DNA of 9,244 nt, taken from IMG/VR virus record IMGVR_UViG_2778261537_000007; one strand, given 5' to 3'. A program made the translations under genes and the position numbers. A model generated the notes under the pieces. The model did no database searches and had not been told where the DNA came from. It saw only the letters and a program-made list of their open reading frames with translations. Numbering within the stretch: position 1 is the stretch's first letter; every line of letters begins with the position of its first letter. Positions 303 to 7,242 of the stretch are shown piece after piece. The stretch comes from a virus. Taxonomy: Duplodnaviria > Heunggongvirae > Uroviricota > Caudoviricetes.

Positions 303-611
303 CTAATATACAAACTGATCCACATGATCACCCAAATCATCGTCGTCGTCCTCATCGCCACCATCTACTGCTGGCCAATCAACAAACCAGCCAGCGTAAA
401 GATGCAGCGTTCGGAGAACATCACTTGCGGGAGCATCAAGGGTGTTAACGAATCCCATATAGCTATTGGGATTTGCTCCAGCTATGGCTTCAGCGATCAT
501 GTCCTCGGTAATGTCTCCGGAGATAATGCTTAAACGCCCGGAAACTTCTTCATTATCATCAAATTCGATAATGGCATCTCCACCTAATGGCGCTGCGATT
601 TTAATCTGCAT
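303..611 (-). CDS. hypothetical small acidic protein with C-terminal poly-Asp/Glu tract; last gene of the minus-strand operon
   Basis: 102-codon ORF. ATG at 611-609 is preceded by AAGGAG with a 7-nt spacer, lying inside the 3' end of the upstream gene, whose stop it overlaps by 11 nt. The C-terminal DGGDEDDDDDLGD is encoded by a short GAC/GAT-type triplet run (plus 336-362). No family recognised. Confidence 0.5.
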   Translation of the reverse strand: MQIKIAAPLGGDAIIEFDDNEEVSGRLSIISGDITEDMIAEAIAGANPNSYMGFVNTLDAPASDVLRTLHLYAGWFVDWPAVDGGDEDDDDDLGDHVDQFVY

Positions 612-3588
612 TATTTAGCTCCTTTGCCACACCTAATAACAGTTCCAGCAATCCGTCACCATTCATCAGTGATGCGGCAGCGGCCTCTTTGTCATGATAC
701 AACTGAAGAGCCATAGAGAATACTTCCGTTGCTGACGTTTTGGAAATAGTCGGTGATTTCTGCCGAATTTTCCCGGTGTTACTTACTGAGGCTGGCGGGT
801 ATACCTTCGCCATATAAATATTACTCAATCGAGATCTGAAGCACCATTCAGGCTTGCCACGCCCACCGATATTGACGAAAGATGGCTTATCCCCTTCAAC
901 ATTGGCCTTCAGGAATGACCGGGCTTTCTCTAACAAACCAGGGTTACTGTACTCAAGATGATGACCCAGCTCGTGCCACAGTGCACTTGCATTTTCATCG
1001 TTCAAATTGACAGCAACAACACCATTTAGATTTGCATATGCCCTTCCCTGGTGGTGAACTACCTTTGATAAGGTCGATATTTTCCCGCCGGTCAGGCGAT
1101 AAATATCAGCAAGTTCCTTGCGCAGGTCTATCCCACCATTCTGTCCAGCGCGGGCTTCTTCCACTTCTTCTGTGATAAAAGAGTCGGCCCACTCAAGAGC
1201 TTTTTCTTCAGATACGGATGAGTTTGCGATCGCACTGTTCATGGCAGATAACACTTTCTCGTGGACCGAACCCATACTTCGCTGATTCATTTGCCAGCGT
1301 GTCTGCGGGTTATATGAGAATCGCTTAAGTAGTTGGTCAAGCTGCTCAAGTTCTTCTTCACTGACATACTTTTTAGCCTCACCAATAATGCCAGGGAGAA
1401 TATTGCCGTTAGGATTAAACGCTCGCGAAAGGAAGAGTTTCAGCGCCCCCATGCCCTCCGATGCTTCAATATCACCAATAACCCGGTTAACAATGGCCGC
1501 ACTCTTCGGATTAGCATCCGCCAACGCTCTGGCTACAATTTGCAGGGACGATACGACCTCACGCTGCATATCCGTCCTGATCTCATCAATAAACTCTGGC
1601 GTTATGCCGTGCTCTTTAAGGATATCCCTGCCTTCCGCCGTTACCCCATCGATATCTCCGACATGTTTATTAACCCGACTTTGCAATGCCTTAAATGCCT
1701 TCAGAATTCCACGGGAATCATCCGCTTTACTAACGGCCTTCCTGAATGCTGGCAAGAAGTCTGAGTTAACCTCATTTTGTTGATCGGCCCACTGAATGGA
1801 GGCTTCTTTCATCTCGTCCAGAGTCAGATCACCCAACGCGGTATGGTCTGTGAATATGAGCGACAACCTCTGAACCATTTCTGCCAATGGTGATGCCGAA
1901 TGCGCCGCGCTAAGGAATGCTTTCACCCTGGTTGGGCGAATGGAAAACCAGTCAATAGCTGGTGGCATATCTCCGTTTTGTATCGCCTGCGCTATCTCAT
2001 CAAAGCCGTCGCGCCCAAGGGAGGATGCGTGATTTAACAATCCGCGAAGTAACGAATTGCTGATACCGAATAATCGGCACCATTTATTCACGTCGGCAAC
2101 AGGCATTCGAACAAAATGCGCAAGCACTTGTACAAGCTGTTCATCCTGGGGATCTGTGCGGGAAAGCAGCCTGATCAGATGAATAATGTCTTTGATGCCG
2201 GATGCCCGATGTAATAGCAAACTGGTATACGGAGCAACACCGTTGTAACTACCGCCGGAAACGGACTCGAAAAGACCGCCGGATATCCCTTGCATGCCTT
2301 CGTTTTCCAGTTCCTGAGACACCTGGCGAAGGATATCCTGTAACGACACATCGCCGCCGCCAAACATATCCCCGAGCGCTTGGCCCTGGTGCTGTAACTC
2401 ATCATTGATACGTTGCGCCATCAACTTAAAGGCGGTGGCCATACGCTTCGCGCTACGGTTATTCGCGACGATGAACAACGCGAGTGCTTTCACTTCCGGG
2501 GCCGTTTCGCTGAACATATCCCCCTGAGCAATAACATCGGTAATATGCTGGCCTGACTCCTTCGATTGCCTTACCAGGTCTACCGCATCTTTCAATGCCG
2601 CCAGCGCCTTTTTATCGAGGCTATCCGCTGTCTCAATGCCATCAACAATAGTTGTCACAGCCTGCTTGTGCGCTTCTCCTGACAAAGCCTGCATCTGGAC
2701 AAAATCATTGGCTGCCGCATTAAGCGCCGTCAGAACATTACGCATATCCGGATCAGGTTCTTCTGCAACCATCCTTACCAGGCGCGCATCCTTATATGCC
2801 TTGGCAAAGATCGCGTTTTGTATACGGTCTACAAGTTGCCGTGTTGGTCGCCCATCTTCAGTTACAAGGCCAGCCGCCTGTGTGGCACCAACTTGCGTCA
2901 TAAATCCGCGAATAAACGCGTCATTACTGCGGCTAAGCAGATCTCCGCTTTCTGACGGGTTAAAAAGCGCCATCATCGCCGGTGTTATGCTGTCGGCATC
3001 AACAAAAGCCTTTTCACTGGCTGCCATTTCCTGAAGATCAGAAATATTTGAGTCCTTGGCAAACTGAACGCGGTCAACCTTAGTTAACCGGCGGCGCACC
3101 AGTACCGGAGCCGTCATTGATTCAACCTTTTCAGGTCGTATGCCGAATTCGGTCGCATGATCAATCAGGTACTCACGATACCGATCCGCATTGCCGTCCT
3201 GATAGGCTTTAATGATCCCCATGGTCCGTCCATTACCTGACTCAACGGCATTGTCCTCACCAATTATCGGCGCGCCATGGCTGGATAGACCGGAATCGGT
3301 AAGCTGAGCAGGCCGCAAATCCTTGGATATCTGGTTAACCTGAAGAAGGCTGGATGCGCGGGTCCGGTCGCGCGGTTGAAGTTCCTGGGGATAGTCAGGA
3401 TTAATTTTCCCATCCAGAGTATTGGATACCAAAAGAGCTGAGGCATCGACGATATCAAACGCTGTTTTTACCTCGTCTCCCTTCGCTGTCACCACATACG
3501 AAACCCGCCCATAATCGGGCAAGTTCTTTAGCAGCTCGATCAGCGTTTCTATGCTGGTGGCCATTACCACCTGATCGCTTAAGCTCAT
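601..3588 (-). CDS. ddrB: DdrB-like large (995 aa) capsid-internal, Dar antirestriction-associated protein carrying an HExxH motif
   Basis: Uninterrupted 995-codon ORF; ATG 3588-3586 lies 13 nt after the stop of the 121-aa gene; stop TAA 603-601. Size and position (after a 639-aa and a 121-aa gene) match the P1 darA operon as I recall it. HELGHH at codons 872-877 (plus 958-975). Symbol rests on synteny and size only. Confidence 0.75.
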   Translation of the reverse strand: MSLSDQVVMATSIETLIELLKNLPDYGRVSYVVTAKGDEVKTAFDIVDASALLVSNTLDGKINPDYPQELQPRDRTRASSLLQVNQISKDLRPAQLTDSGLSSHGAPIIGEDNAVESGNGRTMGIIKAYQDGNADRYREYLIDHATEFGIRPEKVESMTAPVLVRRRLTKVDRVQFAKDSNISDLQEMAASEKAFVDADSITPAMMALFNPSESGDLLSRSNDAFIRGFMTQVGATQAAGLVTEDGRPTRQLVDRIQNAIFAKAYKDARLVRMVAEEPDPDMRNVLTALNAAANDFVQMQALSGEAHKQAVTTIVDGIETADSLDKKALAALKDAVDLVRQSKESGQHITDVIAQGDMFSETAPEVKALALFIVANNRSAKRMATAFKLMAQRINDELQHQGQALGDMFGGGDVSLQDILRQVSQELENEGMQGISGGLFESVSGGSYNGVAPYTSLLLHRASGIKDIIHLIRLLSRTDPQDEQLVQVLAHFVRMPVADVNKWCRLFGISNSLLRGLLNHASSLGRDGFDEIAQAIQNGDMPPAIDWFSIRPTRVKAFLSAAHSASPLAEMVQRLSLIFTDHTALGDLTLDEMKEASIQWADQQNEVNSDFLPAFRKAVSKADDSRGILKAFKALQSRVNKHVGDIDGVTAEGRDILKEHGITPEFIDEIRTDMQREVVSSLQIVARALADANPKSAAIVNRVIGDIEASEGMGALKLFLSRAFNPNGNILPGIIGEAKKYVSEEELEQLDQLLKRFSYNPQTRWQMNQRSMGSVHEKVLSAMNSAIANSSVSEEKALEWADSFITEEVEEARAGQNGGIDLRKELADIYRLTGGKISTLSKVVHHQGRAYANLNGVVAVNLNDENASALWHELGHHLEYSNPGLLEKARSFLKANVEGDKPSFVNIGGRGKPEWCFRSRLSNIYMAKVYPPASVSNTGKIRQKSPTISKTSATEVFSMALQLYHDKEAAAASLMNGDGLLELLLGVAKELNNAD

Positions 3589-3600
3589 CCCTGTTACGCC

Positions 3601-6486: not shown

Positions 6487-6916
6487 CTGACACATCCTGT
6501 GCGAGATTTATTACGTAACTTCTGCGGATTTGCTGAGTAACAGGGAAAATCCGATACAACGGGTTAATGAACGAGTCGCCATGCGTAACCATGACGTTGA
6601 AATGCCACAGTCGCTCTCCTTTACCCATATATTCAGTGGGTATGTACAACCATTCACTGTTTTCGCCCTGTTCAGCCGACGTCAAACAACGTTGTTCGCC
6701 TTCAATCACTGTCGTCGGCTTCTGAACATCGCGGATCCAATATCTGACCGTTGCGCCGCGCAAAAACGGGAATTTAGACCGGTATTTGAACGGCACCCGG
6801 ATGAAACCCGGTTTAATTTCCACATCACCAAGTTCTAAATGCGTGATGTCCTTGCGTTTTAGCAAATAGCGATCGGCTAAGGCTAACGCAAGAACGCATA
6901 CACCCCAGCCAATCAT
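6473..6916 (-). CDS. lydB: LydB-like antiholin / lysis-regulator candidate
   Basis: 147-codon ORF; ATG 6916-6914 overlaps the TGA of the holin-like gene (ATGA) and is preceded by GGGAGG with a 7-nt spacer. Hydrophobic N-terminus (MIGWGVCVLALALA). Function inferred only from position directly after the holin-like gene. Confidence 0.6.
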   Translation of the reverse strand: MIGWGVCVLALALADRYLLKRKDITHLELGDVEIKPGFIRVPFKYRSKFPFLRGATVRYWIRDVQKPTTVIEGEQRCLTSAEQGENSEWLYIPTEYMGKGERLWHFNVMVTHGDSFINPLYRIFPVTQQIRRSYVINLAQDVSDDEK

Positions 6917-7242
6917 TTCCCGCCTCCCTTTTTCACCAAACTTGTAAGAACATTCAGAATGCTATCGATATTCACTCGTTTCATCCCTGAAATCACCTCA
7001 TGACCGTTATTGCTGGCTATCGTTACCATTAAGTACGTAATTGATAACTCCCAGCCCTCGTGTTGCCCCAATAGGTACGCCACCGCGCCAGCTGTCACTG
7101 CAACAAAGATCTCCGTAACCAATCCCAACAAATTGCCAGACTGGCGACCGTCTCGGACATCCATCAGGAACGTGCCTATCCCACCAATTACTGAAAGCAG
7201 GAGCGCAATAGCAACTGGAGCTAATTCCTGTGTGTCAAGCAC
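6913..7242 (-). CDS. lydA: holin-like small membrane protein
   Basis: 109-codon ORF starting at GTG 7242-7240 with a perfect AGGAGG 6 nt upstream. Three predicted hydrophobic helices (LAPVAIALLLSVIGGIGTFL; LLGLVTEIFVAVTAGAVAYLL; LSITYLMVTIA) and a charged C-terminus (KKGGGK), typical of class I holins. Confidence 0.7.
   Translation of the reverse strand: MLDTQELAPVAIALLLSVIGGIGTFLMDVRDGRQSGNLLGLVTEIFVAVTAGAVAYLLGQHEGWELSITYLMVTIASNNGHEVISGMKRVNIDSILNVLTSLVKKGGGK

What the first reader, a model, noticed from the sequence alone, without database searches (positions are those of the whole stretch)
601..7242. Complete Dar-type capsid-internal antirestriction operon fused to lysis-control genes
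Order and sizes (holin-like 109 aa, antiholin-like 147, Hdf-like 200, DarA-like 639, DdrA-like 121, DdrB-like 995) match the P1 darA operon as I recall it. In P1 these proteins are packaged into the head and protect injected DNA from type I restriction. Nearly every junction here is overlapping or within 13 nt (ATGA overlaps at 6913-6916 and 3963-3966), implying tight stoichiometric coupling.
Basis: partly seen in the sequence, partly recalled or inferred. Interest (0 to 1): 0.45.

Follow-up and report, generated by a model that had tools for sequence, protein, structure and literature searches.

The report
Phage P1 darA antirestriction operon

Summary
Window 304–7884 is collinear with phage P1 (NC_005856 24245–31836) at 96.8% DNA identity. 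The minus strand carries lydA, lydB, hdf, darA, ddrA, ddrB and hxr, with the same lengths as in P1. Amino-acid identity to P1 is 96–100% with no indels. P1's late promoter LPdar is conserved base for base at 7271–7289. Pfam and PHROG models and PDB entries 9ukm/9vz0 (DarA and Hdf inside the P1 head) match. The genes are under purifying selection against P1 (pN/pS 0.14).

Both ATGA overlaps and the other tight junctions are real, but they are inherited from P1.

Corrections to the finding:
- The operon extends to hxr (303–611), which the finder's coordinates leave out.
- "Fused to lysis genes" is simply the native P1 arrangement.
- "Complete" holds for the operon, not for the Dar system. DarB and Ulx are not in the window. 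In P1 and in the closest plasmid relative they are encoded 7–14 kb away.
- Stoichiometric coupling is inferred, not shown.

The same arrangement occurs in 639 plasmid records, so there is no novelty. Both flanks differ from P1. On the right are a decayed cin remnant, a flipped Hin/Min-type invertase and a tail-fibre cassette. On the left is different cargo. Both variants are also common.

The parts
7271..7289 (-). Late promoter LPdar (-22 box at 7281-7289, -10 hexamer at 7271-7276)
   Evidence: The 19-nt P1 LPdar sequence AAGTTACTTTGCATACCAT is found exactly at this position. It is annotated in NC_005856 and AJ000741. The whole 60-nt stretch upstream of lydA is identical to P1.
6913..7242 (-). 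lydA, holin (109 aa, GTG start preceded by GGAGG)
   Evidence: 100% amino-acid and nucleotide identity to P1 LydA. Pfam PF16083 LydA holin; PHROG 1527 holin, E 4e-49.
6473..6916 (-). lydB, LydA antagonist / lysis-timing protein (147 aa)
   Evidence: 98.6% identity to P1 LydB. Pfam PF16084 LydB, E 8e-104, full length. ATGA overlap with the lydA stop codon.
5884..6495 (-). hdf, DarA homologue, head-internal protein (203 aa; alternative start at 6486 gives 200 aa)
   Evidence: 98.5% identity to P1 Hdf. Pfam DarA_N, E 1.5e-21. PHROG 1620. PDB 9ukm chain H 'Hdf', E 9.5e-122.
3963..5882 (-). darA, defence against restriction protein A, head-internal (639 aa)
   Evidence: 98.0% identity to P1 DarA. 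Pfam DarA_N and DarA_C. PDB 9ukm chain I, full length, 1377 bits.
3601..3966 (-). ddrA (121 aa), small virion protein needed against EcoA-type restriction in P1
   Evidence: 98.3% identity to P1 DdrA. PHROG 1855 DdrA-like, E 1e-57. No Pfam family. Role taken from the P1 proteome table in PMC9024508.
601..3588 (-). ddrB (995 aa): N-terminal DdrB-type ParB domain, C-terminal zincin-like metallopeptidase motif HELGH at residue 872
   Evidence: 98.8% identity to P1 DdrB. Pfam PF18763 ddrB-ParB, residues 36-167, E 2e-39. HELGH at 872 in both the window and P1. Domain interpretation from PMC5512222.
303..611 (-). hxr (102 aa), Xre-like possible repressor, last gene of the unit; overlaps ddrB by 11 nt
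   Evidence: 96.1% identity to P1 Hxr. PHROG 2292. Annotated as ORFVIII of the darA operon in AJ000741. P1 homology ends one base beyond its stop codon.
2636..3034 (+). iddB, 132-aa ORF antisense inside ddrB, annotated in P1 with unknown function; reality unproven
   Evidence: Protein identical to P1 IddB, but the stretch has only one nucleotide difference from P1, so this says nothing about selection. No Pfam or PHROG match.
7317..7580 (-). lydC, second LydA-family holin-like gene upstream of LPdar (neighbour, outside the operon)
   Evidence: Pfam PF16083, E 1e-9. 54 identical positions in a 94-column alignment with P1 LydC.

Best explanation
The region is the darA late operon of a P1-like (Punavirus) phage-plasmid of Escherichia coli, orthologous gene for gene to that of phage P1.

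Inferred from P1 by near-identity: late in the lytic cycle, transcription starts at LPdar. In P1 this promoter class depends on the phage late activator Lpa (my own knowledge). Transcription runs leftward through lydA (holin), lydB (holin antagonist that delays lysis), hdf, darA, ddrA, ddrB and hxr.

Hdf and DarA enter the prohead first and bind the inner capsid surface at penton-hexon junctions as DarA-Hdf helical-bundle pairs that contact the packaged DNA. They also bias assembly towards full-size heads. They are needed for loading DdrA, DdrB and the separately encoded DarB and Ulx. DarA loses an N-terminal piece of about 9 kDa during maturation. DdrB is probably processed by its own C-terminal metallopeptidase.

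On infection these proteins are ejected with the DNA. They protect only that DNA (in cis) from type I restriction: the DarA/Hdf/DdrA branch against the EcoA/StySA family, and the DarB/Ulx/DdrB branch against EcoB/EcoK.

Shown here: orthology, intact reading frames, the conserved promoter, purifying selection and the domain content. Inferred: every functional step.
For: DNA: window 304-7884 aligns to P1 at 96.8% over 7597 columns. 29 phage records match, including P1, P7, SJ46, RCS47 and JL22. 639 plasmid records match and 320 cover at least 80% of the window.

Proteins: seven proteins of identical length to P1's, 96.1-100% identical, no gaps, no internal stops. pN/pS is 0.14 overall.

Promoter: LPdar is identical to P1.

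Families and structures: Pfam LydA holin, LydB, DarA_N (twice), DarA_C and ddrB-ParB; matching PHROGs; PDB 9ukm/9vz0 DarA and Hdf; HELGH motif conserved in DdrB.

Function in P1: six-protein Dar system, order of incorporation, type I specificity and 55 DarA-Hdf pairs (PMC12810830); virion proteome containing Hdf, DarA, DdrA and DdrB (PMC9024508); action in cis (PMC12707154); DdrB processing and domains (PMC5512222).
Against: Nothing in the sequence argues against it. The limits are these. No experiment exists for this particular element. DarB and Ulx are not in the window, so the EcoB/EcoK branch cannot be assessed from the window alone. The terminator that AJ000741 annotates after hxr in P1 is replaced here, and no terminator-like hairpin is predicted in 90-310, so the 3' end of the transcript is unknown. 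DarA carries a cluster of substitutions in residues 250-343 whose effect is unknown. The molecular mechanism by which Dar proteins block type I enzymes is still unresolved, even in P1.
Confidence: 0.96

Rival explanations
1. The operon is a decaying remnant in a defective prophage-plasmid, so its genes are no longer expressed or functional.
For: The neighbouring cin gene is decayed, with in-frame stops at 7708-7884. One related phage record (vB_EcoM-673R5) annotates darA and ddrB as several fragments.
Against: All seven reading frames are intact and the same length as in P1. pN/pS is 0.14. The promoter and the lydA ribosome-binding site are identical to P1. Hundreds of near-identical full-length copies exist in plasmids. 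The fragmented annotation belongs to another record, not to this window.
Confidence: 0.02
2. The main selected function of hdf and darA is capsid morphogenesis (head-size determination and DNA and capsid stabilisation), and antirestriction is a secondary consequence of loading other cargo such as DarB. The operon would then be better described as a head-assembly/cargo-loading module than as an antirestriction operon.
For: [quoted passage not shown] DarA-Hdf pairs are bolted to penton-hexon junctions and contact DNA. Deleting either excludes the other Dar proteins from the head.
Against: This does not exclude the best explanation. In P1, darA, hdf and ddrA mutants lose protection against EcoA/StySA, independently of DarB (as cited). 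dar mutants are viable, so the morphogenetic role is not essential (my knowledge of Iida 1987 and Piya 2017, not re-read here).
Confidence: 0.25
3. The joining of lysis genes (lydA, lydB) to dar genes is a new fusion specific to this element.
For: None beyond the finder's wording.
Against: The same order, overlaps and promoter are present in P1, P7, SJ46, RCS47, JL22 and others. The P1 annotation notes lydA identity to plasmid p15B.
Confidence: 0.01

Closest known systems
Bacteriophage P1 darA operon (NC_005856 24244-31230; AJ000741)
   Same: Gene order, gene lengths, overlaps, start codons (including the GTG of lydA) and the LPdar promoter. 96-100% protein identity and 96.8% DNA identity.
   Different: About 3% nucleotide divergence. 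13 DarA substitutions, 9 of them in residues 250-343. Sequence downstream of hxr (P1: terminator, isaB, IS1) and upstream beyond lydC (P1: intact cin) is replaced.
P1-like phage-plasmids of E. coli, e.g. pEC00592_4 (NZ_OP378608.1), NZ_CP128256.1 and phage vB_EcoM-673R5
   Same: They match the whole window, including both non-P1 flanks, at 98.5-99.5%. pEC00592_4 also carries darB and ulx at the P1-equivalent position.
   Different: Only point differences and different orientations of the invertible tail-fibre segments (matches split into 2-4 pieces).
Phage T4 internal protein IPI*
   Same: A head-packaged protein ejected with the DNA that protects it from a host restriction enzyme (mentioned in PMC12810830 and PMC5512222).
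   Different: No sequence relationship. IPI is a single small protein that acts by binding the restriction enzyme. Dar is a multi-protein system tied to capsid assembly, it acts against type I systems, and it acts only in cis.

Membership tests
P1-type darA operon (Punavirus) | Gene order lydA-lydB-hdf-darA-ddrA-ddrB-hxr on one strand with P1-like lengths | tested here: met
   Lengths 109/147/203/639/121/995/102 aa are identical to P1.
P1-type darA operon (Punavirus) | Each protein is significantly similar to its P1 counterpart | tested here: met
   96.1-100% identity, no gaps. Pfam and PHROG family matches. PDB DarA and Hdf matches.
P1-type darA operon (Punavirus) | P1 late promoter (-22 box plus -10 hexamer) upstream of lydA | tested here: met
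   Exact 19-nt LPdar match at 7271-7289.
P1-type darA operon (Punavirus) | Products are packaged into the phage head and ejected with the DNA | not testable with these tools
   Shown for P1 by LC-MS/MS and cryo-EM. Needs proteomics of this element's virions.
P1 Dar antirestriction system (six proteins) | Presence of all six components: Hdf, DarA, DdrA, DdrB, DarB, Ulx | tested here: not met
   tblastn of P1 DarB and Ulx against the window finds nothing. This is expected, because in P1 they lie 7-14 kb away. The closest plasmid relative has both (2235/2255 and 144/146 identical). The window therefore holds four of the six components. The parent genome probably holds all six, but that is not shown.
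P1 Dar antirestriction system (six proteins) | Protection in cis of incoming DNA from type I restriction-modification systems | not testable with these tools
   Literature for P1 only.
DdrB-like polyvalent proteins (Iyer et al. 2017) | DdrB-type ParB domain plus C-terminal zincin-like metallopeptidase | tested here: met
   PF18763 at residues 36-167, E 2e-39. HELGH at residue 872. The metallopeptidase domain itself was recognised only by this motif and by identity to P1 DdrB, not by a profile hit.
LydA/LydB holin-antiholin pair | Holin of superfamily III followed by a LydB-family antagonist, with overlapping stop and start codons | tested here: met
   PF16083 at 30.1 bits against a 28.4 cut-off, and PHROG 1527 at E 4e-49, for LydA. 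PF16084 at E 8e-104 for LydB. ATGA overlap.

The most novel reading that the evidence does not exclude
The local patch of divergence in DarA residues 250-343 lies in the alpha-helix and penton-binding domains. It holds 9 of the 13 amino-acid changes against P1, including P343S in a penton-contact loop. It could mark allelic exchange or diversifying selection that tunes capsid binding, cargo loading or the range of restriction systems countered among P1-like phage-plasmids. In addition, because the P1 terminator after hxr is replaced, late transcription might read into the new downstream cargo gene.
Probability: 0.08. Interest if true: 0.25.

Novelty: already known. Interest (0 to 1): 0.05.

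Why it matters
It matters little as a discovery. The darA operon of P1 was defined genetically in 1987 and sequenced in 1998 and 2004 (dates and papers from my own knowledge; accessions AJ000741 and NC_005856 are). It was dissected functionally in 2017, seen in the virion proteome in 2022 and resolved structurally in 2026. The window is one of hundreds of near-identical copies in E. coli phage-plasmids. The result is useful as annotation: it identifies the window as part of a P1-like phage-plasmid and shows that automated annotation of such plasmids still labels most of these genes 'hypothetical protein'.

Tried and rejected
- I tried to read the primary papers Piya et al. 2017 (PMC6011833) and Łobocka et al. 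2004 (under the PMC id I recalled, PMC523184). Neither is held, so functional statements rest on later open papers that cite them.
- I looked for an intrinsic terminator after hxr. The pattern scan found none on the minus strand in 1-303, and folding of 90-310 is no better than shuffles (z = 0.2). The 3' end of the transcript is therefore undetermined.
- I tested whether iddB, the antisense ORF inside ddrB, shows its own coding constraint. The stretch has only one nucleotide difference from P1, so the test is uninformative.
- I considered that the operon might be a pseudogenised remnant and rejected it: frames are intact and pN/pS is 0.14.
- I considered that the lysis-dar linkage might be a novel fusion and rejected it: it is the P1 layout.
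- I did not use the large protein-database, structure-prediction or metagenome searches. Near-identity to a curated reference made them unnecessary.
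Full report
**1. Observation**

The minus strand of the window carries a tight series of ORFs:
- 7242-6913: 109 aa, GTG start
- 6916-6473: 147 aa
- 6495-5884: 203 aa
- 5882-3963: 639 aa
- 3966-3601: 121 aa
- 3588-601: 995 aa
- 611-303: 102 aa, not listed by the finder

The finder's '200 aa' for the third ORF corresponds to the second ATG at 6486. That start has an AGGA a few bases upstream, and the original P1 entry AJ000741 annotates it as an alternative. The PDB chain for Hdf is 203 residues.

Read on the coding strand, both quoted ATGA overlaps are real. 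The junctions are:
- lydA/lydB: 4-nt overlap
- lydB/hdf: 23-nt overlap (14 nt with the 200-aa start)
- hdf/darA: 1-nt spacer
- darA/ddrA: 4-nt overlap
- ddrA/ddrB: 12-nt spacer
- ddrB/hxr: 11-nt overlap

**2. Identity**

Megablast against phage genomes finds 29 records. Among them are P1 (several isolates), P7, SJ46, RCS47, JL22 and phi456, at 97-99% identity over window positions about 304-7884. A direct alignment to P1 NC_005856 gives 96.8% over 7597 columns.

The curated P1 annotation lists, in the same order and with the same lengths, hxr, ddrB (with the internal antisense iddB), ddrA, darA, hdf, lydB and lydA. The late promoter LPdar follows, then lydC and cin.

Pairwise protein identity to P1, all ungapped:

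| Protein | Identity to P1 |
|---|---|
| LydA | 100% |
| LydB | 98.6% |
| Hdf | 98.5% |
| DarA | 98.0% |
| DdrA | 98.3% |
| DdrB | 98.8% |
| Hxr | 96.1% |

The 19-nt LPdar core (-22 box and -10 hexamer) is present unchanged at 7271-7289. The whole leader up to the GGAGG ribosome-binding site and the GTG start of lydA is identical to P1.

Synonymous differences outnumber replacements (pS 0.050, pN 0.007, ratio 0.14). The genes are therefore evolving as functional coding sequences.

Profile and structure searches agree:
- Pfam: LydA holin, LydB (E 8e-104), DarA_N in both Hdf and DarA, DarA_C, and ddrB-ParB
- PHROGs: holin, lysis-determining protein, Hdf-like, the family PHROGs describes as 'released from the phage upon host infection' (DarA), DdrA-like, and the full-length DdrB family
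- PDB 9ukm/9vz0: DarA and Hdf
- The HELGH metallopeptidase motif at DdrB residue 872, conserved in the window and in P1

**3. How it works (inferred from P1, not tested here)**

[quoted passage not shown] Hdf and DarA are incorporated first and are required for packaging of the others. DarA, Hdf and DdrA act against EcoA/StySA-type type I enzymes. DarB, Ulx and DdrB act in the EcoB/EcoK branch. DarA and Hdf also influence head size (PMC12810830; PMC9024508 table).

Cryo-EM shows 55 DarA-Hdf pairs on the inner capsid surface at penton-hexon junctions. They contact the DNA and leave the head with it. DarA residues 1-69 are absent from the density, consistent with proteolytic processing.

Dar acts only in cis on the DNA packaged with it (PMC12707154). 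DdrB has a DdrB-type ParB domain and a C-terminal metallopeptidase, and it is processed to about 76 kDa before packaging (PMC5512222).

LydA and LydB are the holin and its antagonist (P1 annotation; Pfam names). They are the first two genes of the same late transcription unit.

With 96-100% identity, the same mechanism is the overwhelmingly likely one here. I put confidence in orthology and function at 0.96.

**4. Corrections to the finder's reading**

- The unit extends to hxr (303-611). That gene overlaps ddrB and is ORFVIII of the darA operon entry.
- The association with lysis genes is the native P1 arrangement, not a fusion event.
- The operon is complete, but the Dar system is not contained in the window. 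tblastn with P1 DarB and Ulx finds nothing. In P1 these genes lie at 9995-17236, which is 7-14 kb from ddrB. The window's closest plasmid relative, pEC00592_4, has both at the equivalent place, with 2235/2255 and 144/146 identical residues.
- Tight spacing suggests translational coupling but does not establish stoichiometry. Only part of the DarA and Hdf pool forms the 1:1 capsid-bound pairs.

**5. Distribution and novelty**

In PLSDB, 639 plasmid records match and 320 cover at least 80% of the window. They are mostly E. coli, with some Salmonella and Klebsiella, and mostly non-mobilizable. This is the signature of P1-like phage-plasmids.

Several records match the entire window, including the non-P1 flanks, at 98.5-99.5%. 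One example is NZ_OP378608.1, which matches in a single piece.

The feature is already known, and I score its interest at 0.05.

**6. Things seen outside the finding**

P1 homology ends at 7884 on the right and at 304 on the left.

On the right:
- 7708-7884 is the decayed 5' end of cin, with in-frame stops.
- An intact 190-193-aa serine invertase follows on the opposite strand at 8597-8016. It has Resolvase and HTH_7 domains and is 69% identical in DNA to cin.
- Two sites resembling P1 cixL lie at 8649-8668 and 9163-9182.
- Those sites bracket a start-less 170-aa tail-fibre cassette with a Phage Tail Collar domain.
- Paralogous copies of this cassette occur four to five times in the related phage. 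To my knowledge this resembles the multiple-inversion Min region of plasmid p15B.

On the left:
- P1's terminator, isaB and IS1 are replaced by a 122-aa hypothetical gene that starts at window position 96.
- In relatives, an 'anti-phage dGTPase' lies beyond that gene.

Other points:
- LydC is much more divergent from P1 than LydA, with 54 identical positions in 94 alignment columns against 100% for LydA.
- DarA replacements cluster in residues 250-343: 9 of 13, binomial P 1.3e-5. Synonymous changes are also enriched there: 7 of 20, P 0.02. This suggests a locally divergent, possibly recombinant, patch in the alpha-helix and penton-binding domains.

Noticed in passing
window 7708-7884 (+): Decayed 5' remnant of the P1 cin invertase gene. 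Its translation, MLIGYVRI*TNEQNTAMQ*..., contains in-frame stops. Homology to P1 ends abruptly at 7884.
   Followed up: partly
window 8016-8597 (-): Intact Hin/Min-type serine DNA invertase (Resolvase + HTH_7; the likely ATG at 8588 gives 190 aa). It is in the opposite orientation to P1 cin and only 69% identical to it in DNA. Closer relatives are the invertases of P2-like prophages (Fels-2, SEN8) at 75-80%.
   Followed up: partly
window 8649-8668, 9163-9182 and 8651-9160 (+): Two 20-nt sites resembling the P1 cixL crossover site bracket a start-less 170-aa tail-fibre C-terminal cassette with a Phage Tail Collar domain. Paralogous cassettes occur 4-5 times in phage vB_EcoM-673R5 (L002). This suggests a p15B/Min-type multiple-inversion host-range switch instead of P1's single C segment.
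   Followed up: partly
window 1-303 (and L005 1165-3096): P1 homology stops one base after the hxr stop codon. P1's annotated terminator, isaB and IS1 are replaced by a 122-aa hypothetical gene with no Pfam match (starts at window 96 on the minus strand and runs off the window). In relatives, a gene annotated 'anti-phage deoxyguanosine triphosphatase' lies beyond it. No terminator-like hairpin is predicted between hxr and this gene.
   Followed up: partly
window 7317-7580 (-): LydC, a second LydA-family holin-like protein upstream of LPdar, has only 54 identical positions in a 94-column alignment with P1 LydC, whereas the adjacent lydA is 100% identical in nucleotides. Divergence changes sharply at the promoter, which suggests a recombination boundary.
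   Followed up: no
window 4854-5135 (-), DarA residues 250-343: 9 of 13 amino-acid differences from P1 DarA, and 7 of 20 synonymous ones, fall in this 94-residue stretch (binomial P 1.3e-5 and 0.02). It lies in the alpha-helix and penton-binding domains. P343S is in a penton-contact loop described in the 2026 structure paper.
   Followed up: partly
L006 1602-2906 (pEC00592_4, NZ_OP378608.1): In the closest plasmid relative, a SIR2-family protein gene sits between mat and lxc, where P1 carries its res/mod type III restriction-modification genes. Defence cargo appears to be exchanged at fixed hot spots of P1-like phage-plasmids.
   Followed up: no
L002 3101-7823 (phage vB_EcoM-673R5, ON470615.2) and L005 3303-9916: Database annotation quality is poor. 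The phage record splits ddrB and darA into several 'hypothetical' fragments, and the RefSeq plasmid record calls Hxr, DdrB, DdrA, DarA, Hdf and LydB 'hypothetical protein', even though all are characterised P1 proteins.
   Followed up: no
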